Virus record (IMG/VR): IMGVR_UViG_3300010342_001360
Coordinates: 1 to 25,576 of that record
Direction: 5' to 3' (one strand)
Length of the DNA stretch: 25,576 nucleotides
DNA from: a virus
The translations under genes were made by a program, and so were the position numbers. Positions 6,106 through 11,618 of this stretch are shown here, one piece after another. Numbering within the stretch: position 1 is the stretch's first letter; every line of letters starts with the position of its first letter. The notes beneath the pieces are model-generated. The model was not told the DNA's origin. It did no database searches and saw only the letters and a list, made by a program, of their open reading frames with translations.

Positions 6106-6149
6106 CTCTACAATTACAAACAAACGATCTTTCATATTTTGATTTATAC

Positions 6150-6594
6150 GCCCCGTCCCACCGGCTACAAGAAAGGATGGCTCTATCATAATAGTGATCA
6201 TAAAGGGTAGATGCGCGGTGAAAGTCCGCGATGGGGTAGTCCTAAGGATACTCCTTCAGAAGGAGGTCCGAAGATGCCTGCCGACCAGAGCATGAGATGG
6301 TCCTCACCTATGAGCAAATAGGGGTTTTTTACGTTCTCGTTTTATCCTAAGAAAATGAGAGTACCGCTTCCACAGCGTGATAGGGGTCTGGCCACGAGAC
6401 TGATGCGGTGGTAGGGTTTTTACGTTTCTGATTTTTCAGCTTGGGGATTTTAAACCTTTCCCCTAAACAAAATCGGTGTACTGCAAGGTTCCGGCATATT
6501 GGACCTTTCGGCTAGCTTCAGTCAATGTAGGAATGGCATCCGTGAGCAAGAGCAACCAGCGCAAGGTTCTCGGGGGGGAAGATTAAACTTCCCC
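6150..6594 (+). ncRNA. Large ornate structured ncRNA candidate (~445 nt; GOLLD/ROOL-like context)
   Basis: GC-richer, no ORF, own promoter and terminator, many hairpins, and two repeated GGGTTTTTACGTT-hairpin-GTACYGC modules. Confidence 0.6.
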
Positions 6595-6605
6595 TTTTCT
6601 TTTTT
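6575..6605 (+). terminator. Intrinsic terminator
   Basis: GGGGAAG-ATTAAA-CTTCCCC followed by TTTTCTTTTTT. Confidence 0.75.
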
Positions 6606-6662
6606 ATCGTTCTTCGAATATTTGTCATAATCTAGGGCGTTTGCGAAGATATATAAACTAAA

Positions 6663-7292
6663 ATGTATATTTGCAAATGCGGGAGGAAATTTGAAAAACA
6701 AAATTCTTTAAATGCCCATTTTTCTCATTGTTTAATTCATAGAAATGGAAAAATTCCTATAAATCGTTTTAAGGGAAGGGAAAATTGGAATAAGGGGCTT
6801 AAAAAAGAAACTGATGAAAGAGTTCAAAAATATTCGAAATCATTAAAGGATTCTTTAAATAGTGGAAAGGTTATTCCGAGTTTTTTTGGGAAACATCATT
6901 CAAATAAAACCAAAGAAAAGCTTAGTTTAATTCAAAGCACTTCTCATAAAGGGGGATACTGCAAATGGATTCCATACCAAAAGGGGGATAAAATAATTTA
7001 TCTTCAAGGATCCTGGGAATTTAAATATGCCCAATATTTGGACTCATTAAATTTGAAATGGATTAAACCCGGGAACGGAGATTTAAAATATTCTTTTTTC
7101 TGGATGGATGACTTGGGAATTAAAAGAATTTATACCCCGGATTTTTATATCATAGATTATAATCAATATATTGAAATAAAAGGATATTGGAGAGAAAATG
7201 ATAGAATTAAAATGAAAAAAGTCCTTGAACAAAATAAAATATCTCTTCAAATTCTTGAAAAGAAAGATTTAAAAAATCTTAATTTATTGTAA
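6663..7292 (+). CDS. PD-(D/E)XK-type free-standing endonuclease with N-terminal Zn-finger-like and NUMOD3-like segments
   Basis: CKCG..HFSHC, FFGKHHSNKTKEKLS, SWE..YA, YTPDFYI...YIEIKGYW. Confidence 0.72.
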   Translation: MYICKCGRKFEKQNSLNAHFSHCLIHRNGKIPINRFKGRENWNKGLKKETDERVQKYSKSLKDSLNSGKVIPSFFGKHHSNKTKEKLSLIQSTSHKGGYCKWIPYQKGDKIIYLQGSWEFKYAQYLDSLNLKWIKPGNGDLKYSFFWMDDLGIKRIYTPDFYIIDYNQYIEIKGYWRENDRIKMKKVLEQNKISLQILEKKDLKNLNLL

Positions 7293-7294
7293 TC

Positions 7295-7381
7295 GCCCTC
7301 GTGATGGAAATGGGTAGACATACCAACCTCAAAAGTTGGTGCTTATAAAATAGCGTGTGGGCTCGAGTCCCACCGAGGGCA
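7295..7381 (+). tRNA. trnL: tRNA-Leu(CAA), T loop CTCGAGT
   Basis: Acceptor GCCCTCG/CGAGGGC, anticodon arm CCAAC-CTCAAAA-GTTGG, long variable arm. Confidence 0.9.
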
Positions 7382-7578
7382 CGACAGTGACAACAGGTTC
7401 CAGCCTGGTGCAAAATTGACTATAATAATAGGATGATGAGATTAATCTGGACGTATCATCCTTGCCACTGTTTCTTTTTATAACCAACATGTCCTTAATC
7501 TTTTAACCTACATTTAACAAAACTTATTTTCGTTTATAAGAAGATGAAGGGGACTTCAAAAACTGAATAATTGATTAA

Positions 7579-7613
7579 GAAGGGGCTATCGTCAATTTAG
7601 CCCCTTCTTTTTT
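7579..7613 (+). terminator. Intrinsic terminator
   Basis: GAAGGGGCT...AGCCCCTTC followed by TTTTTT. Confidence 0.75.
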
Positions 7614-7705
7614 ATTTTATGACATTTTGTCGATAAATAAGGATCGGCATAATTATCGGAAGATATATATTATTTAAGGGATATTTTTAATTAAAAAACA
7701 AAATT

Positions 7706-8080
7706 ATGAAAAAACCATTTTATTACTAGATTCATTCAAAACTTATCGTCATTACAAGACGAGATTTAGCCCCAGGAATTCAGGCTGTACAAGCTGCTCA
7801 TGCGGCAATTGATTTCCAGCATCAACATTCTTCTATTGCTCGAGAATGGAATATAAATTCCAATTATCTCATTTTCTTATCTGTACAAGACGAGCAAGAA
7901 CTCAAAAGATTTATTCAAAAATTTCAGATTTATGGTCTTAACCATACAGTCTTTGCTGAACCCGATTTAGATAATCAGGTTACTGCTGTTTGTGTTGAAC
8001 CATCTGAAAGAACTATGAAATTATGTTCTCATTTACCTTTGGCACTCCGTGAATTTAACGGGTCTTTAACGCAAGGGTAA
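7706..8080 (+). CDS. Pth2-superfamily (peptidyl-tRNA hydrolase-like) protein with in-frame TAG at codon 8 (missed by the ORF track)
   Basis: Translates as MKKPFYY*IHSKLIVITRRDLAPGIQAVQAAHAAIDF...YLIFLSV...FAEPDLDNQVTAVCVEP...LCSHLPLAL. TAG at 7727-7729. The V.R.DL..G..A.Q.AHA and EPDL...TAV motifs are intact. Confidence 0.8.
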
Positions 8081-8118
8081 TGAGATTTTTTGTATATTTA
8101 AATTAAAATTTTTGAACT

Positions 8119-8148
8119 ATGGAACACTAGATTATTAGACCGCCTTAA
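8119..8148 (+). CDS. Amber-interrupted micro-ORF MEH*IIRPP-stop (putative leader peptide)
   Basis: ATG GAA CAC TAG ATT ATT AGA CCG CCT TAA, downstream of a TATATTTA box (8093-8100) and an A/T-rich leader. Confidence 0.45.
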
Positions 8149-8150
8149 CC

Positions 8151-8222
8151 ATGAATTATTTTATTTAGACATTAAATGGACATAAAATATGGACATTTGG
8201 ACATCAATCAGGTCAACTTTAA
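8151..8222 (+). CDS. Amber-interrupted micro-ORF MNYFI*TLNGHKIWTFGHQSGQL
   Basis: ATG 2 nt after the previous stop, TAG at 8166-8168, internal repeat I*T..GH / IWTFGH. Confidence 0.4.
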
Positions 8223-8249
8223 TTTTTTAACTCAAATAAAATAATAATC

Positions 8250-8582
8250 ATGGAAACTTTAACTATCAATAAAATTGCAATTAACGCTTTAAAAAGCGAT
8301 ATTAAAAAACTTTCTGAAGAGCAGAAATTTTTAAGAAATCAGAGAAAGACAGTTTACATCAAAGGGGAAAGAACAATGGAACCTTGGGTAGCTGCCATGA
8401 AACACAGGGCTAACAGAGAAAAATTAAGAATCATGTTTGCTGCTTATGGTTTAATGAGAGGAAAATCTTTAGAACAAATTGAACTAAAGTCATCTAAGGA
8501 AAACTCTATTAAAAACTTTCTACCTCAGGTAAGTAAAACTATTGAAACTTATAACAAATTATCAGATGAGTTACAAAAGTGA
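8250..8582 (+). CDS. Hypothetical phage protein (110 aa, basic, helical)
   Basis: Full ORF with A-rich leader. No function recognised. Confidence 0.8.
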   Translation: METLTINKIAINALKSDIKKLSEEQKFLRNQRKTVYIKGERTMEPWVAAMKHRANREKLRIMFAAYGLMRGKSLEQIELKSSKENSIKNFLPQVSKTIETYNKLSDELQK

Positions 8583-8730
8583 TTTCAAAAAAAGGGAGCT
8601 CGAACAAGAGCTTGCAGAGGAAGAGCGAGAAATCCTTGAAGAAGAAAAAAAGTTAACTACGGAAGAACTTCGTAAAAAAAGGCGTCAGGAGATAGAGGAT
8701 GAAATACGGAGAGAACAGGCCGGATGGTAA
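8566..8730 (+). CDS. Small highly charged hypothetical protein (54 aa)
   Basis: ATG 8566 overlaps the upstream gene end. E/K/R-rich, coiled-coil-like. Confidence 0.6.
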   Translation: MSYKSDFKKRELEQELAEEEREILEEEKKLTTEELRKKRRQEIEDEIRREQAGW

Positions 8731-8736
8731 TAACAA

Positions 8737-8775
8737 GCATGGACATTATCATAGACACGATGTCCATGCTATTTT
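8737..8775 (+). terminator. Terminator-like or processing hairpin directly before the suppressor tRNA
   Basis: GCATGGACAT/ATGTCCATGC 10-bp stem followed by TATTTT. Confidence 0.5.
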
Positions 8776-8847
8776 GGTTGTGTAGTTCAGTGGTTAGAAC
8801 AGAGGTCTCTAAAACCTTATACGCGGGTTCGACCCCCGCCGCAATCA
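8776..8847 (+). tRNA. Amber suppressor tRNA (anticodon CUA)
   Basis: Acceptor GGTTGTG/CGCAATC plus A73, D arm GTTC-AGTGGTTA-GAAC, anticodon arm GAGGT-CT-CTA-AA-ACCTT (anticodon 8809-8811), T arm GCGGG-TTCGACC-CCCGC. Confidence 0.92.
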
Positions 8848-8913
8848 CAATTTTTTATTAAAACTTCAATAAAATAAGCCATACAAAGAATAAATAAAAT
8901 AAATAAACTACGT

Positions 8914-9261
8914 ATGGAATATTTAACTACTGAAACTTTCAAAGAGAAAGTTTTTAATTTTGAAAGCGAATCCGAATTTAAGGTAACAAAACCCACAATA
9001 ATTGATTTTTATGCTGATTGGTGCGGCCCTTGCAAGACTATTGCTCCAATATTAGAAGATCTATCTAAAGAATTTGAAGGAAAAGTAGACATCTATAAAG
9101 TAAATGTAGATGAGAGTCATGAATTAGCTGGTGCATTTAATATTAGAAGCATACCTGCCCTTCTTTTTGTTCCTATAGAAGGTAAAGCTCAAATGATGGC
9201 AGGGGCCCTTCCTAAAACTTCTTTTAAGAAAGCCATTAAAGATATTTTTCACATTGAATAA
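8914..9261 (+). CDS. trxA: Thioredoxin
   Basis: IDFYADWCGPCK, KVNVDE, IRSIPAL. Confidence 0.95.
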   Translation: MEYLTTETFKEKVFNFESESEFKVTKPTIIDFYADWCGPCKTIAPILEDLSKEFEGKVDIYKVNVDESHELAGAFNIRSIPALLFVPIEGKAQMMAGALPKTSFKKAIKDIFHIE

Positions 9262-9917: not shown

Positions 9918-11618
9918 ATGGCTAAGTACAACACCAAGAGGGAAATTTCTCTCGCAGACCAGAAGAGCGGAGTTGAAAAGACTACTACTCACCAGGGCGG
10001 ACAGGGTTACACCCAGCGTCCAGAAGCGGAACTTATCGGTATCCTCGCAACGGGTATGGGTAACAACTTTTACGAAAAGGAAACTGAACGTGAAAAGAGG
10101 TTCCGTGATGTTCTCGACAAGGTTGCAAAGGTTAACAAGCTTTTCGCAGCTAAGGCACTTATTTACGCTCGTACTATTTTTGGACAGCGTTCCGTTACTC
10201 ACTTCGGTGCAGTTGAAATGATTCCTCACCTTCAGGGGGACCCACTTGCTAAGAAGTTCTTCACCAAGAGGGACAAGAAAGCAGAACGTGGCGGAATTAT
10301 CTGGAGGCTTGACGATATGGCTGAAATCCTTGCAGCATATTTTGCAAAGAATGGCCAGGAAGCATCTCTTCCTAACTCCCTCAAGAAGGGATTCAAGGAT
10401 GCTCTTGAACATGCTGACACTTACGAACTTGCTAAGTACCAGATGAAGAATAGGGGTGTATCACTTGTTGACATTGTCAACCTTGTTCACCCAGTTGAAA
10501 CTCCTAAGAATGGTTTCATCTATATTCCTGAACAGGATTACCTCAAGGCAACTGCTGGAACAAAGTTCGTTGGCAAGGAATACCAGAAGAACGAAAAGGG
10601 CGAAGTCCAGGTTCCTGCACTCCGTGCTCTCGTACTCGGAATTCTTAAGCAGTTCAACACCGTTGAAGATAAGAATACTGAAGCTGGTAAGGTTGTAGCT
10701 GAAAAGGTTAAGAGCGGAGAAATCACTCAGGAACAGGCAGCAGCTCAGCTTAACGAAGCTAAGACTGAAAACTACAAGGAACTCATCGAAACCAAGAAGA
10801 TTGGTTACCTTGCACTTCTTCGTAACATCAGGAATATTCTTAAGACTAACGATACAGTTCTCCTTGACAAGGCGTGCGAACTTCTTGTCGACCAGAATTT
10901 CATCCGCAAGTCACTTGTTTGGCCTCACCAGATTGACCTTGCTCTCGAAGTAATGTTAATCGAATTCAATGGTCGTCAGCTCCAGAAGATTGCAGCAGCT
11001 CTCGATGAAGCTTATGAAAAGTCAATCCCTAACCTTTCTCAGCTTCTTCCAGAAGGAAAGACTGCAGTTGTCTTTGACACTTCAGGTTCTATGGAAGGCG
11101 GATGGGGCGGTGGAATCAAGATTGATGGCAAGCCAAGCAACTCTCGCCCAGTTGATAAGGCAGCTCTTATCGCAGCAACTTTTGCTAAGGGTACCGGCGG
11201 AGACGTCTACCATTTCGGCTCAACTTGCTCGGTTATTAAGGGATGGAATCCAAATGATGCCATCAACACTCTTAAGAAGAGTTTTGCTCGTCATATCGGA
11301 GAATGCGGTCATGGTACTGTTTATTCATCTATTCTTCCTGAACTCGAAAGAGTTGGAGGTGGATACGACAGGATTCTTATCATCACCGACGAACAGGGTG
11401 CAGATTCTTTCGAAGATACCTACAAGAGGTATTCTGGAAAGTATGGAACTCCATACGTTTACTTCATTAACATTGTAGGCTACGGCCCAACAATGGCTAA
11501 GGCTGGAAACAAGGTATTCCGTCTCTTCGGATACTCTGCAGACATCTATGAAAAGATACCTCACTTGGAAATGAACATCAACGAAGTTATCGATGCAATT
11601 AACCGTATCGAAATCTAA
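9918..11618 (+). CDS. rsr: Ro60/Rsr-like RNA-binding protein (TROVE domain + vWA domain)
   Basis: TTHQGGQGY, FYE, KALIYAR...RSVTH, YELAKYQ, DIVNLVHP, YLALLRNIRNI, MIDAS DTSGS, ILIITDEQ, FGYS. Confidence 0.92.
   Translation: MAKYNTKREISLADQKSGVEKTTTHQGGQGYTQRPEAELIGILATGMGNNFYEKETEREKRFRDVLDKVAKVNKLFAAKALIYARTIFGQRSVTHFGAVEMIPHLQGDPLAKKFFTKRDKKAERGGIIWRLDDMAEILAAYFAKNGQEASLPNSLKKGFKDALEHADTYELAKYQMKNRGVSLVDIVNLVHPVETPKNGFIYIPEQDYLKATAGTKFVGKEYQKNEKGEVQVPALRALVLGILKQFNTVEDKNTEAGKVVAEKVKSGEITQEQAAAQLNEAKTENYKELIETKKIGYLALLRNIRNILKTNDTVLLDKACELLVDQNFIRKSLVWPHQIDLALEVMLIEFNGRQLQKIAAALDEAYEKSIPNLSQLLPEGKTAVVFDTSGSMEGGWGGGIKIDGKPSNSRPVDKAALIAATFAKGTGGDVYHFGSTCSVIKGWNPNDAINTLKKSFARHIGECGHGTVYSSILPELERVGGGYDRILIITDEQGADSFEDTYKRYSGKYGTPYVYFINIVGYGPTMAKAGNKVFRLFGYSADIYEKIPHLEMNINEVIDAINRIEI

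What the first reader, a model, noticed from the sequence alone, without database searches (positions are those of the whole stretch)
7706..8080. Hidden Pth2-like gene whose only ATG start lies upstream of an amber codon
Seen: the hydrolase fold starts right after the TAG (IHSKLIVITRRDL), and the next in-frame ATG comes only near the C-terminus. Full-length protein therefore needs readthrough or initiation at the ATT that follows TAG. The catalytic-type motifs are intact, which argues against decay. The same TAG-ATT junction occurs in the next micro-ORF.
Basis: partly seen in the sequence, partly recalled or inferred. Interest (0 to 1): 0.8.

Follow-up and report, generated by a model that had tools for sequence, protein, structure and literature searches.

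The report
Amber-gated Pth2 beside suppressor tRNA
A giant phage that otherwise uses the normal genetic code keeps a UAG stop codon at the start of its peptidyl-tRNA hydrolase gene and in a tiny ribosome-stalling leader next to it, right beside its own UAG-reading tRNA. These genes are therefore probably made only while that tRNA is working, and I found no published description of such a natural switch.

Summary
The frame 7706-8080 reads ATG, six codons, TAG (7727-7729), ATT, then a complete Pth2-fold domain, with no canonical start after the TAG until codon 103.

- **Real gene.** It has Pfam and PDB matches and a confident Pth2 fold model. dN/dS is 0.07-0.14.
- **Conserved stop.** All 39 related phage loci checked keep ATG, 1-6 codons, then TAG at this place (19 distinct contexts). 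One further relative found through the protein database (L095) lacks it.
- **Matching tRNA.** A tRNA(CUA) gene lies at 8776-8848 and was found in 31 of 35 related loci.
- **Standard code.** Two complete relatives and a 132-kb close relative use the standard code, and Pth2 is their only long frame gated this way.
- **Second gate.** The "next micro-ORF" (8119-8148, MEH-UAG-IIRPP-stop) is a conserved RAPP-like arrest leader. Its 3' flank pairs with the start region of the next gene.
- **Matching variants.** Outgroup phages carry a TAA leader with tRNA(UUA), and a TGA leader with a probable tRNA(UCA).

Best reading: translation of Pth2 depends on the phage suppressor tRNA, within a module that senses suppression. 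ATT initiation, general recoding and gene decay are all disfavoured. This scan noted the same module before on other DNA (at least 33 genomes); I found no paper describing it. No direct evidence of translation exists.

The parts
7582..7618 (+). Terminator-like hairpin (AAGGGGCT ... AGCCCCTT followed by a T run) between tRNA-Leu(CAA) 7295-7382 and the Pth2 gene. It is the likely upstream boundary of the unit.
   Evidence: Read directly from the sequence. The consensus scan did not list it because its loop is longer than 8 nt. An RNA-library contig nevertheless runs across it (X16 record 3).
7706..8080 (+). Pth2-family gene, 124 codons if TAG is decoded. ATG 7706, in-frame TAG 7727-7729 (codon 8), stop TAA 8078-8080.
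   Evidence: Pfam PF01981; PDB Pth2 1rzw, E 1e-9; fold; dN/dS 0.07-0.14; conserved layout.
7727..7729 (+). Conserved amber codon, the gate, in the disordered N-terminal tail of Pth2. It is followed by A (ATT).
   Evidence: TAG is present in all 39 related loci examined. The base after TAG is a purine in 18 of 19 distinct contexts. Residues 1-10 have mean pLDDT 58, against 96 and above for most of the domain.
8119..8148 (+). Leader micro-ORF M-E-H-(TAG 8128-8130)-I-I-R-P-P-TAA, an amber-containing peptide with a RAPP-like Pro-Pro-stop ending.
   Evidence: Equivalents lie downstream of Pth2 in about 41 of 45 loci, with endings such as RAPP, KAPP, KKPP, RPP, RGPT, RAPT and RPPN. The motif occurs once in each complete relative, G2 and G3.
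8149..8169 (+). 5' strand of stem P1. It starts immediately after the leader stop codon.
   Evidence: Minimum-free-energy fold and alignment fold. It pairs with 8232-8253.
8165..8203 (+). Four direct WTRGACA repeats inside the loop closed by P1.
   Evidence: 7 of the window's 17 matches lie here and at 8739-8767. Similar repeats plus an inverted copy occupy the same place in most relatives. Function unknown.
8232..8253 (+). 3' strand of stem P1. It covers the A-rich leader and the ATG (8250-8252) of the next gene.
   Evidence: Cognate duplexes average -11.0 kcal/mol and non-cognate ones -5.4 (permutation p <= 1e-4).
8250..8582 (+). ORF110, the gene behind the leader. Function unknown.
   Evidence: No Pfam or PHROG match. 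It is conserved in the close clade. In other clades, unrelated-looking ORFs of 76-144 aa hold this position.
8737..8769 (+). Inverted repeat GCATGGACAT ... ATGTCCATGC, which contains WTRGACA motifs, directly upstream of the suppressor tRNA.
8776..8848 (+). Amber suppressor tRNA. Anticodon CUA in a normal 7-nt loop (CUCUAAA), G1-C72, discriminator A73, short variable arm, no encoded CCA.
   Evidence: ARAGORN. Rfam tRNA 67.5 bits. Counterparts were found in 31 of 35 related loci.

Best explanation
The stretch 7706-8848 is a suppression-dependent (amber-gated) module of a huge phage that otherwise uses the standard code.

Inferred mechanism for Pth2: translation starts at ATG 7706. At codon 8 the ribosome meets UAG. 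Without the phage tRNA(CUA), encoded at 8776-8848, release factor 1 ends a 7-residue peptide and no enzyme is made. With charged suppressor tRNA the UAG is decoded and the 124-residue Pth2-family protein is produced. The inserted amino acid is unknown; databases write Q by convention. The gate sits in a disordered N-terminal tail, so the inserted residue does not matter and an aborted product costs almost nothing.

Inferred mechanism for the second client: the same tRNA serves the leader 8119-8148 (MEH-UAG-IIRPP-stop). Only if its UAG is read does the ribosome reach the Pro-Pro-stop (RAPP-like) end. There it should pause on the 5' strand of stem P1 (8149-8169) and free the start region of ORF110 (8232-8253).

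Shown here: the anatomy, its conservation, the covariation of P1, the standard code of relatives, and the match between stop codon and anticodon in variants.

Inferred only: that UAG is decoded by this tRNA, that the leader stalls, and the physiological role. My guess at the role is that Pth2 recycles the short peptidyl-tRNAs that fall off ribosomes waiting at gates and arrest sites, or arise from readthrough, so it is needed just when suppression is on.
For: 1. Real gene under selection. Pfam PTH2. Profile hits to solved archaeal Pth2 structures, E 1e-9. AlphaFold2 pLDDT 91.4. Foldseek top 13 matches are all Pth2/Bit1. dN/dS 0.07-0.14.

2. TAG conserved as TAG.
- It is present in 39 of 39 viral loci examined, with an in-frame ATG 1-6 codons upstream, in 19 distinct contexts.
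- 75 of 93 full-length database homologues show Q followed by I, V or L before the domain. The two whose DNA I checked translate to the database sequence only with TAG read as Q.
- Elsewhere in the gene there is no TAG.

3. The next codon is GTA, GTT or CTT in 6 of 19 contexts, which argues against initiation there.

4. A tRNA(CUA) lies within 0.05-1.1 kb of the gene in 31 of 35 loci. It is 40-150 nt upstream of the ATG in most clades and about 700 nt downstream here.

5. This is not general recoding.
- Complete relatives G2 and G3 and the 132-kb relative G5 are 78-84% covered by table-11 ORFs of 100 aa or more.
- Reading TAG as sense gains no more than reading TGA as sense in G3 and G5, and 0.6 points more in G2.
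- 6-9% of long ORFs end in TAG.
- Pth2 is the only long ORF with an N-terminal TAG and no nearby start.

6. Second gate. The leader with TAG plus a RAPP-like end is conserved downstream of Pth2 and occurs once per genome. Stem P1 is supported by cognate versus non-cognate duplex energies, with the own partner ranked 1-3 of 21 in 20 of 21 loci.

7. Stop codon and anticodon co-vary.
- L085 has a leader MNSLF-TAA-LHRSRGPP, an operon ending in Pth2 without its own stop, and tRNA(UUA).
- L086 has a TGA-containing RARGPP leader, Pth2, and a tRNA whose loop reads UUUCAA, probably anticodon UCA.
- Where Pth2 lies behind the leader it has no own stop. Where it lies ahead of the leader it carries its own TAG.

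8. The base after TAG is a purine in 18 of 19 Pth2 contexts and 15 of 15 leader contexts. From my own knowledge (Bossi 1983; Miller and Albertini 1983), that is the context that favours amber suppression in E. coli.

9. Contigs from RNA libraries of two studies span the ATG-TAG-domain junction with the TAG unchanged (X16 record 3 and X17 record 6).

10. RAPP and RGPP are documented robust arrest cores (PMC12992588, PMC10951233, PMC7897499).
Against: - There is no direct evidence of translation, readthrough or stalling.
- RNA-library contigs may derive from contaminating DNA and cannot show strand or transcript ends.
- The amino acid carried by the tRNA is unresolved. It is not most similar to the phage tRNA-Gln genes, and A73 with a short variable arm would fit Lys better than Gln by E. 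coli rules.
- One relative at 81% identity (L095) has a Pth2 without the TAG while keeping the leader and the tRNA, so the gate is dispensable.
- In G3 the tRNA upstream of Pth2 is atypical and is missed by ARAGORN and Rfam. No tRNA(CUA) was found in the flanks of L025 and L038.
- Relatives end 6-9% of long ORFs in TAG without nearer back-up stops, so suppression must be partial or confined in time.
- The window's leader ends in RPP rather than the tested RAPP/RGPP, and the nascent chain is only 8 residues, shorter than studied arrest peptides.
- The canonical Pth2 lysine is not conserved, so the enzyme's substrate may differ from classical Pth2.
Confidence: 0.72

Rival explanations
1. The upstream ATG-to-TAG stretch is a separate mini-ORF. 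Pth2 is started on its own, or by termination-reinitiation, at the ATT that follows the TAG, without any suppressor.
For: ATT and ATC are rare bacterial start codons, and ATT or ATC follows the TAG in 13 of 19 distinct contexts. The Pfam domain starts only four codons later. Very short ORFs are known to release ribosomes inefficiently (own knowledge of minigene work).
Against: In 6 of 19 contexts the following codon is GTA, GTT or CTT, which are not start codons. The position behaves like a conserved Ile/Val/Leu residue. The same M-x-TAG-I/V layout is used by the leader, where reinitiation would give a pointless 5-residue peptide. The tight linkage to tRNA(CUA), and the swap to TAA with tRNA(UUA) in L085, would be unexplained.
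Confidence: 0.08
2. The phage uses genetic code 15 (TAG is a sense codon) in general or in its late genes, and the Pth2 TAG is just one ordinary recoded codon seen in a small window.
For: A suppressor tRNA(CUA) is the hallmark of TAG-recoded phages (10.1101/2021.08.26.457843; PMC13037316). None of 34 curated ORFs in the window ends in TAG. The window is only about 6% of the genome. Databases already translate these homologues with TAG read as Q.
Against: Two complete relatives and a 132-kb close relative are covered 78-84% by table-11 ORFs. Reading TAG as sense gains no more than the TGA control in G3 and G5, and 0.6 points more in G2. 6-9% of long ORFs end in TAG. No other gene in the window has an in-frame TAG. 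With TAG used for about 6-8% of stops in relatives, 0 of 34 is expected about one time in eight, so it is not informative. A drifting sense codon would not stay fixed at codons 3-13 of one gene across 19 contexts while never appearing elsewhere in that gene.
Confidence: 0.06
3. The gene is decaying or silenced: a nonsense mutation near the start has inactivated a Pth2 gene.
For: There is an in-frame stop at codon 8 and no canonical start after it.
Against: dN/dS is 0.07-0.14 after the stop. Ten residues are invariant across 35 homologues. The stop is at the equivalent place in dozens of divergent phages. The fold model is intact and confident.
Confidence: 0.01
4. The UAG is read through, but the purpose is to report on the host termination or tRNA-damage state (release factor 1 activity, anticodon nucleases) rather than to time expression to the phage's own tRNA. 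In this view the module is a stress sensor feeding a ribosome-rescue enzyme.
For: Jumbo-phage PTH2 has been proposed to help rescue ribosomes jammed by cleaved tRNAs (PMC7824862). The gate output depends on the ratio of suppressor tRNA to release factor, so either side could be the variable that is sensed. The module sits among large tRNA arrays.
Against: Nothing in the sequence tells this apart from the simpler timer or AND-gate reading. No nuclease or release-factor gene was seen next to the module.
Confidence: 0.1

Closest known systems
RAPP/RGPP-type ribosome arrest peptides (ApdA, ApdP, ApcA; SecM RAGP) that unmask a downstream start site (PMC7897499, PMC10951233, PMC12992588)
   Same: A short upstream ORF ends in an Arg/Lys-x-Pro-Pro type motif. 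The mRNA just behind it pairs with the start region of the next gene, so a paused ribosome would switch that gene on.
   Different: The peptide is only 8-15 residues and has no signal or membrane segment. The input is not protein export but an in-frame stop codon that must be decoded by a phage suppressor tRNA. The window's version ends RPP-stop rather than RAPP/RGPP. Stalling was not tested.
prfB (release factor 2) autoregulation through an early in-frame UGA
   Same: An early in-frame stop codon inside a translation-factor gene makes the yield depend on competition at that stop codon.
   Different: prfB escapes by a +1 frameshift and senses its own product. Here the frame is unchanged, escape needs a dedicated suppressor tRNA, and the product is a Pth2-type hydrolase.
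TAG-recoded (code 15) phages with suppressor tRNAs, such as crAss-like, Lak and jumbo phages (10.1101/2021.08.26.457843; PMC9523058; PMC13037316)
   Same: A phage-encoded tRNA(CUA) is present, and in-frame TAG has been proposed there to time the expression of certain genes.
   Different: There, hundreds of TAG codons are spread over late genes and table-11 coding density collapses. Here relatives keep the standard code, still use TAG as a stop, and only two small targets carry the codon at fixed positions.
Attenuation leader peptides that sense charged tRNA (trpL, hisL, pheL)
   Same: A tiny leader ORF contains the codon whose tRNA is being monitored, and ribosome position on the leader changes an RNA structure downstream.
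   Different: Those sense shortage of a sense-codon tRNA and act on transcription termination. Here the presence of a stop-codon-reading tRNA is sensed and the inferred output is translational unmasking.
Archaeal and eukaryotic Pth2 (AF2095 1rzw/3erj, MJ0051 2zv3, human Bit1 1q7s) and the PTH2 genes noted in jumbo phages (PMC7824862)
   Same: Same fold (TM 0.70-0.78) and same family by Pfam and profile search. The conserved acidic residue and the Thr-Ala strand are kept.
   Different: The GKGK-loop lysine is replaced by variable residues. The clade has its own invariant set (D20, Q29, H32, F83, E85, P86, D87, T93, A94). The amber gate and the tRNA linkage were not reported in that paper.
Lambda bar minigenes and peptidyl-tRNA drop-off (own knowledge)
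   Same: Two- to seven-codon ORFs ending in a stop codon are the classic source of dropped-off peptidyl-tRNA, the substrate of peptidyl-tRNA hydrolase. Unsuppressed, the Pth2 5' end and the leader are such minigenes.
   Different: bar minigenes are toxic only in Pth-defective hosts and are not fused in frame to a hydrolase gene. No link to suppressor tRNAs is known.

Membership tests
Pth2 (PF01981) peptidyl-tRNA hydrolase family | Sequence match above the curated family threshold | tested here: met
   Pfam PTH2 34.3 bits against a cut-off of 23, residues 12-102. A profile of 35 homologues hits the solved Pth2 structures 1rzw, 2zv3, 1q7s, 1wn2 and 1xty, with E from 1e-9 to 9e-3.
Pth2 (PF01981) peptidyl-tRNA hydrolase family | Pth2 alpha/beta fold | tested here: met
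   The AlphaFold2 model has pLDDT 91.4 and pTM 0.84. The 13 best Foldseek matches are all Pth2/Bit1 chains, TM 0.55-0.78.
Pth2 (PF01981) peptidyl-tRNA hydrolase family | Catalytic residues proposed for archaeal Pth2: the Lys of the GKGK loop and the Asp of the DAG motif. This residue assignment comes from my own memory of the Sulfolobus work. I did not find it in a paper here. | tested here: inconclusive
   In the HMM alignment to 1rzw the Lys column holds variable residues in this clade (I, Y, A, S, Q). The acidic column is an invariant Glu85, with invariant Asp87 two residues on.
Pth2 (PF01981) peptidyl-tRNA hydrolase family | Hydrolysis of N-blocked aminoacyl-tRNA or peptidyl-tRNA | not testable with these tools
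   This needs an enzyme assay.
Amber suppressor tRNA | Cloverleaf tRNA with anticodon CUA in a 7-nt loop and elongator-type features | tested here: met
   ARAGORN cloverleaf with loop CUCUAAA and G1-C72 paired. Rfam tRNA 67.5 bits.
Amber suppressor tRNA | It is aminoacylated and decodes UAG in vivo; identity of the amino acid | not testable with these tools
   Similarity to the phage's other tRNAs gives no assignment. A73 and a short variable arm are the only hints.
RAPP-like regulatory arrest peptide | Short upstream ORF with a C-terminal R/K-x-P-P (RAPP, RGPP) or related core | tested here: met
   The window has IIRPP-stop. Relatives have RAPP, KAPP, KKPP, RKPP, RGPT, RAPT and RPPN. Outgroups have RGPP. 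The exact RAPP/RGPP core is present only in some relatives, not in the window.
RAPP-like regulatory arrest peptide | An mRNA structure couples ribosome position on the leader to the downstream start site | tested here: met
   Stem P1 is predicted in the window (8149-8169 with 8232-8253) and in most relatives with different sequences. Cognate pairs average -11.0 kcal/mol and non-cognate pairs -5.4, p <= 1e-4. It was not seen in L016, L022 and L025 with the fixed segments used.
RAPP-like regulatory arrest peptide | Demonstrated elongation or termination arrest | not testable with these tools
   This needs toeprinting or in vitro translation.
Code-15 (TAG read as sense) recoded phage | Many genes interrupted by TAG, a clear gain in coding density when TAG is read as sense, and TAG not used as a stop | tested here: not met
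   G2, G3 and G5 show table-11 coverage of 78-84%. The gain with TAG as sense is 1.2-3.2 points, against 2.6-3.9 for the TGA control. 6-9% of long ORFs end in TAG. The window has no other gene with an in-frame TAG. The window's own full genome is not available.

The most novel reading that the evidence does not exclude
Standard-code huge phages carry a self-contained sensor of genetic-code state. It consists of a suppressor tRNA and two dedicated targets, and it explains why such phages keep suppressor tRNAs at all. One target is an arrest leader whose in-frame stop codon matches the tRNA's anticodon (TAG/CUA, TAA/UUA, TGA/UCA). The other is a Pth2-type hydrolase, placed under the same control either by its own N-terminal stop codon or by lying behind the leader. 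In this reading the Pth2 clade, which lacks the canonical lysine, is specialised. It would clear the short peptidyl-tRNAs generated at these gates, or act on the suppressor tRNA itself and so set the suppression level by feedback.
Probability: 0.5. Interest if true: 0.9.

Novelty: new variant of a known kind. Interest (0 to 1): 0.8.

Why it matters
- **Annotation.** Gene callers working with table 11 miss this gene entirely. Callers that switch a whole contig to code 15 to rescue it would then read through the contig's real TAG stops. This is a practical problem for thousands of large-phage contigs.
- **Role of phage suppressor tRNAs.** The module gives a concrete, testable job to suppressor tRNAs found in phages that do not use an alternative code.
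- **New sensor input.** It would be a natural regulatory device that uses a stop codon plus a private tRNA as an AND gate or timer, combined with an arrest peptide whose input is the decoding of a stop codon. Synthetic biologists built this kind of design with amber suppression (PMC6412442), and I found no description of a natural one.
- **Origin of recoding.** It ties a peptidyl-tRNA hydrolase to stop-codon suppression. That points to peptidyl-tRNA drop-off as a cost of suppression that phages have to manage, and it may be a stepping stone towards full TAG recoding.

Tried and rejected
- **Zero of 34 window ORFs end in TAG.** I first took this as a sign of recoding. I rejected it because relatives use TAG for only 6-9% of stops, so zero of 34 is expected about one time in eight.
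- **Back-up stops.** In G2 and G3, TAG-terminated genes do not have nearer back-up stops than other genes (Mann-Whitney p 0.77). This gives no support for adaptation to readthrough.
- **Other N-terminally gated genes.** Searches of G2, G3, G5 and the window found only trivial cases, where an upstream in-frame ATG precedes a real stop and a normal start follows. One candidate, G2 239226 (MEEFK-TAG-LNSF..., next start 27 codons on), was not followed up.
- **Amino-acid identity of the suppressor tRNA.** Similarity to 130 phage tRNAs gave no clear nearest isoacceptor.
- **UAG as an initiation codon read by an initiator-like tRNA(CUA).** Rejected. The tRNA has G1-C72 paired and only two G-C pairs at the foot of the anticodon stem, and an in-frame ATG always precedes the TAG.
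- **Function of ORF110 and its positional counterparts.** No Pfam or informative PHROG match.
- **Rfam.** Nothing but tRNAs in the window or in five related loci, and nothing in the GC-rich gap 6040-6680 even at E 0.1.
- **Consensus promoter and terminator scan of 7350-8950.** No more hits than shuffles for promoters.
- **Literature.** Seven searches found no paper linking Pth2, suppressor tRNA and an amber-containing leader. The catalytic residues of Pth2 could not be confirmed from the papers held.
- **RNA-library contigs.** The parts of 7300-8900 without cover in a given run are not evidence of anything.
Full report
**What is there.** The window is a 25.6-kb fragment of an IMG/VR virus record that CheckV rates 6% complete, so it comes from a phage of several hundred kb. 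GC is 34.5% and there are at least 12 tRNA genes. On the + strand, ATG 7706 is followed by six codons, TAG at 7727-7729, ATT, and an open frame to TAA 8080. Table 11 lists no ORF here, because the next canonical start after the TAG is 95 codons on. Read through, the product is 124 residues. Pfam PTH2 matches residues 12-102 above threshold. A profile of 35 homologues finds the solved archaeal Pth2 structures. An AlphaFold2 model is confident (pLDDT 91.4), except for residues 1-10, which include the TAG position. Its best structural matches are all Pth2/Bit1.

**The stop codon is conserved, not accidental.** A scan of viral contigs returned 45 related loci at 48-99% identity. In all 39 whose 5' end could be read, the gene begins ATG, then 1-6 codons, then TAG, then an Ile/Val/Leu codon, then the domain. 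These make 19 distinct 15-nt contexts. A database relative has 12 codons before the TAG. Among 93 full-length database homologues, 75 show Q followed by I, V or L before the domain. The two whose DNA I checked translate to the database sequence only with TAG read as Q. After the TAG, dN/dS is 0.07-0.14. Synonymous divergence reaches about 1.2 between the window and its 80% relatives while the TAG stays put. This rules out a pseudogene. The codon after TAG is GTA, GTT or CTT in 6 of 19 contexts, which argues against initiation at that codon.

**A matching tRNA sits beside it.**
- A tRNA with anticodon CUA in a normal seven-base loop lies at 8776-8848.
- ARAGORN found a counterpart in 31 of 35 related loci. 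In most clades it ends 40-150 nt upstream of the Pth2 ATG. In the window's clade it lies about 700 nt downstream.
- In G3 the element in that position has the CUCUAAA loop but an atypical body, and the tRNA finders miss it.
- The tRNA bodies differ widely between loci. The anticodon loop and A73 are what is shared.
- I could not assign the amino acid.

**These phages are not recoded.**
- I fetched two complete relatives, G2 (369 kb) and G3 (363 kb), and a 132-kb contig of the closest large relative, G5.
- Table-11 ORFs of 100 aa or more already cover 78-84% of them.
- Reading TAG as sense adds no more than reading TGA as sense in G3 and G5. In G2 it adds 3.2 points against 2.6 for TGA.
- 6-9% of long ORFs end in TAG.
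- A search for a stop followed by 90 or more open codons with no nearby start found the Pth2 gene. Everything else was off-frame noise or trivial cases, apart from one candidate in G2 (around 239226) that I did not follow up.
- In the window no other gene has an in-frame TAG.
- My early impression that zero of 34 ORFs ending in TAG meant recoding does not hold against this background rate.

**The "next micro-ORF" is a second, conserved target.**
- The frame 8119-8148 encodes M-E-H-(TAG)-I-I-R-P-P-stop.
- Equivalent micro-ORFs lie within about 1.5 kb downstream of Pth2 in about 41 of the 45 loci. Examples are MK-TAG-IRRKPP, MM-TAG-ILRAPP, MN-TAG-IKAPP, MK-TAG-IIRGPT, MM-TAG-IARPPN and MK-TAG-IKIRGPTYVVFN.
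- The pattern occurs exactly once in each complete genome, at this place.
- R-A-P-P and R-G-P-P are documented as robust ribosome-arrest cores (PMC12992588, PMC10951233, PMC7897499).
- Each micro-ORF is followed, mostly after 22-126 nt, by an ORF of 76-144 aa of unknown function. That ORF belongs to at least three unrelated-looking families.

**Stem P1.**
- The bases that begin at or just after the leader's stop codon pair with the region just upstream of, or including, the start codon of that next ORF.
- In the window, 8149-8169 pairs with 8232-8253, which hides ATG 8250.
- The stem sequences differ between loci. Cognate pairs fold at -11.0 kcal/mol on average and non-cognate pairs at -5.4.
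- The own partner ranks 1-3 of 21 in 20 of 21 loci (permutation p <= 1e-4).
- A ribosome held at the Pro-Pro-stop would sit on the 5' strand of this stem. A ribosome that terminates at the leader's UAG, 18 nt further up, would not.

**Stop codon and anticodon change together.** Two outgroup homologues at 45-51% identity have no stop in Pth2 and start with GTG. In L085 (GC 60%) a leader M-N-S-L-F-(TAA)-L-H-R-S-R-G-P-P precedes an operon that ends with Pth2, followed at once by a tRNA with anticodon UUA. In L086 a GTG-started frame with an in-frame TGA and R-A-R-G-P-P precedes ORF113 and Pth2. Then comes a tRNA whose loop reads UUUCAA, probably anticodon UCA; ARAGORN could not parse it. So where Pth2 lies behind the leader it needs no stop of its own, and where it lies ahead of the leader, as here, it carries its own. 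One exception is L095 (81% identical), which has lost the TAG in Pth2 but keeps the leader and the tRNA.

**Other support.** The base after TAG is a purine in 18 of 19 Pth2 contexts and 15 of 15 leader contexts. From my own knowledge of the E. coli context studies, that is the favourable context for amber suppression. Near-identical DNA is held by runs of 18 studies, mostly anaerobic digesters, wastewater, sludge and soil. Contigs from RNA libraries of two studies span ATG-TAG-domain with the TAG unchanged. Another contig runs from ORF110 into the tRNA. These are contigs, so they show presence in RNA libraries only.

**How it most likely works.** Shown: the anatomy, its conservation, the covariation of P1, the standard code of relatives, and the stop/anticodon match. 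Inferred:
- The phage tRNA decodes both UAG codons in competition with release factor 1.
- Pth2 is made only then.
- The leader, once read through, pauses at its proline end and opens the start of ORF110.

The gate's place in a disordered tail at the very start of the gene fits a regulatory codon: any residue will do, and an aborted product is a few residues long. As for why a hydrolase should be tied to suppression, ribosomes waiting at early stop codons or arrest sites with very short nascent chains are prone to lose peptidyl-tRNA. That is the substrate of such enzymes. This last step is a guess. The clade lacks the lysine of the canonical GKGK loop, so its substrate may be special.

**Comparison and novelty.**
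- PTH2 genes in jumbo phages have been noted (PMC7824862), as have suppressor tRNAs in recoded phages (10.1101/2021.08.26.457843; PMC13037316).
- Seven literature searches found no description of an amber-gated Pth2, or of an arrest leader whose input is stop-codon suppression.
- This scan's own earlier notes describe the same kind of module in at least 33 other genomes, and another first-stage note covers 7706-8847 of this window.
- Those notes are unchecked AI notes. One of them (e1-5650616) gave me the lead to look for non-amber versions, which I then confirmed in L085.
- I class the finding as a new variant of known kinds: programmed readthrough, arrest-peptide leaders and phage suppressor tRNAs.

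**Verdict.** Confidence in suppressor-dependent translation of a functional Pth2-family gene is about 0.7. Interest is 0.8.

Noticed in passing
window 8165-8203 and 8737-8769; also L019, L024, L026-L028, L030, L033 and L040 between leader and next ORF: Clustered WTRGACA repeats. Four direct copies lie inside the loop closed by stem P1, and three copies (one inverted, forming a hairpin) lie right before the suppressor tRNA. In relatives, two direct copies 12 nt apart plus an inverted copy sit in the same leader loop. They may be a protein-binding site or a processing signal; the function is unexplained.
   Followed up: partly
L085:756-860 and 3343-3432: A GC-rich (60%) huge-phage contig has a leader M-N-S-L-F-(TAA)-L-H-R-S-R-G-P-P upstream of an operon that ends in a Pth2 without its own stop. 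A 90-nt tRNA with anticodon UUA and a long variable arm follows directly. This is an ochre version of the module.
   Followed up: partly
L086:2531-2632 and 3366-3439: A GTG-started frame with an in-frame TGA followed by R-A-R-G-P-P lies upstream of ORF113 and Pth2. Directly after Pth2 is a tRNA whose anticodon loop reads UUUCAA, which ARAGORN could not parse and which probably has anticodon UCA. This is a candidate opal version.
   Followed up: partly
L022:2895-2962 (G3): Directly upstream of the TAG-gated Pth2 of a complete 363-kb phage lies a tRNA-like element. It has a good acceptor stem, a good T arm and a CUCUAAA loop, but an aberrant D and anticodon-stem region. ARAGORN and Rfam both miss it.
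   Followed up: partly
L095:42-443: In a relative at 81% identity, Pth2 has a sense-coded 17-residue N-terminus (a TAG is present only out of frame), while the amber leader M-E-(TAG)-I-R-T-L-P-P and the tRNA(CUA) are kept. A Lys codon aligns where the window has TAG.
   Followed up: partly
window 9918-11618: A 566-aa protein with a TROVE (Ro60-like) domain (E 3.6e-7). Such proteins usually work with small Y-type RNAs, and none was looked for here.
   Followed up: no
window 6050-6660: A gap of about 600 nt between genes, with many small ORFs in all frames and no long ORF. No Rfam match was found even at E 0.1. It may be a structured RNA or a degraded element.
   Followed up: partly
window 85-4891, 1427-1602, 2874-2925, 5397-5462: A tRNA array (Thr, Gln x2, Pro x2, Leu x3, Tyr, Glu) is interleaved with small ORFs. 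There are also three weak tRNA-like Rfam hits that ARAGORN does not call, one of them 176 nt long (possibly carrying an insert).
   Followed up: no
window 8542-8730: A highly charged 55-62-aa frame (rich in Glu, Lys and Arg) overlaps the end of ORF110 in another frame and runs almost to the tRNA. It may be a separate small gene or a frameshift extension; which is not resolved.
   Followed up: no
window 6663-7292 and 5671-6048, 8914-9261: A NUMOD3-like putative homing endonuclease abuts tRNA-Leu(CAA). A SiaC-family regulatory phosphoprotein homologue and a thioredoxin flank the module.
   Followed up: no
G2 (L066-L084) around 239226: A possible further gated gene, about 10 kb from Pth2 in a complete relative: M-E-E-F-K-(TAG)-L-N-S-F-N-K..., with 187 open codons and the next canonical start 27 codons on.
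   Followed up: no
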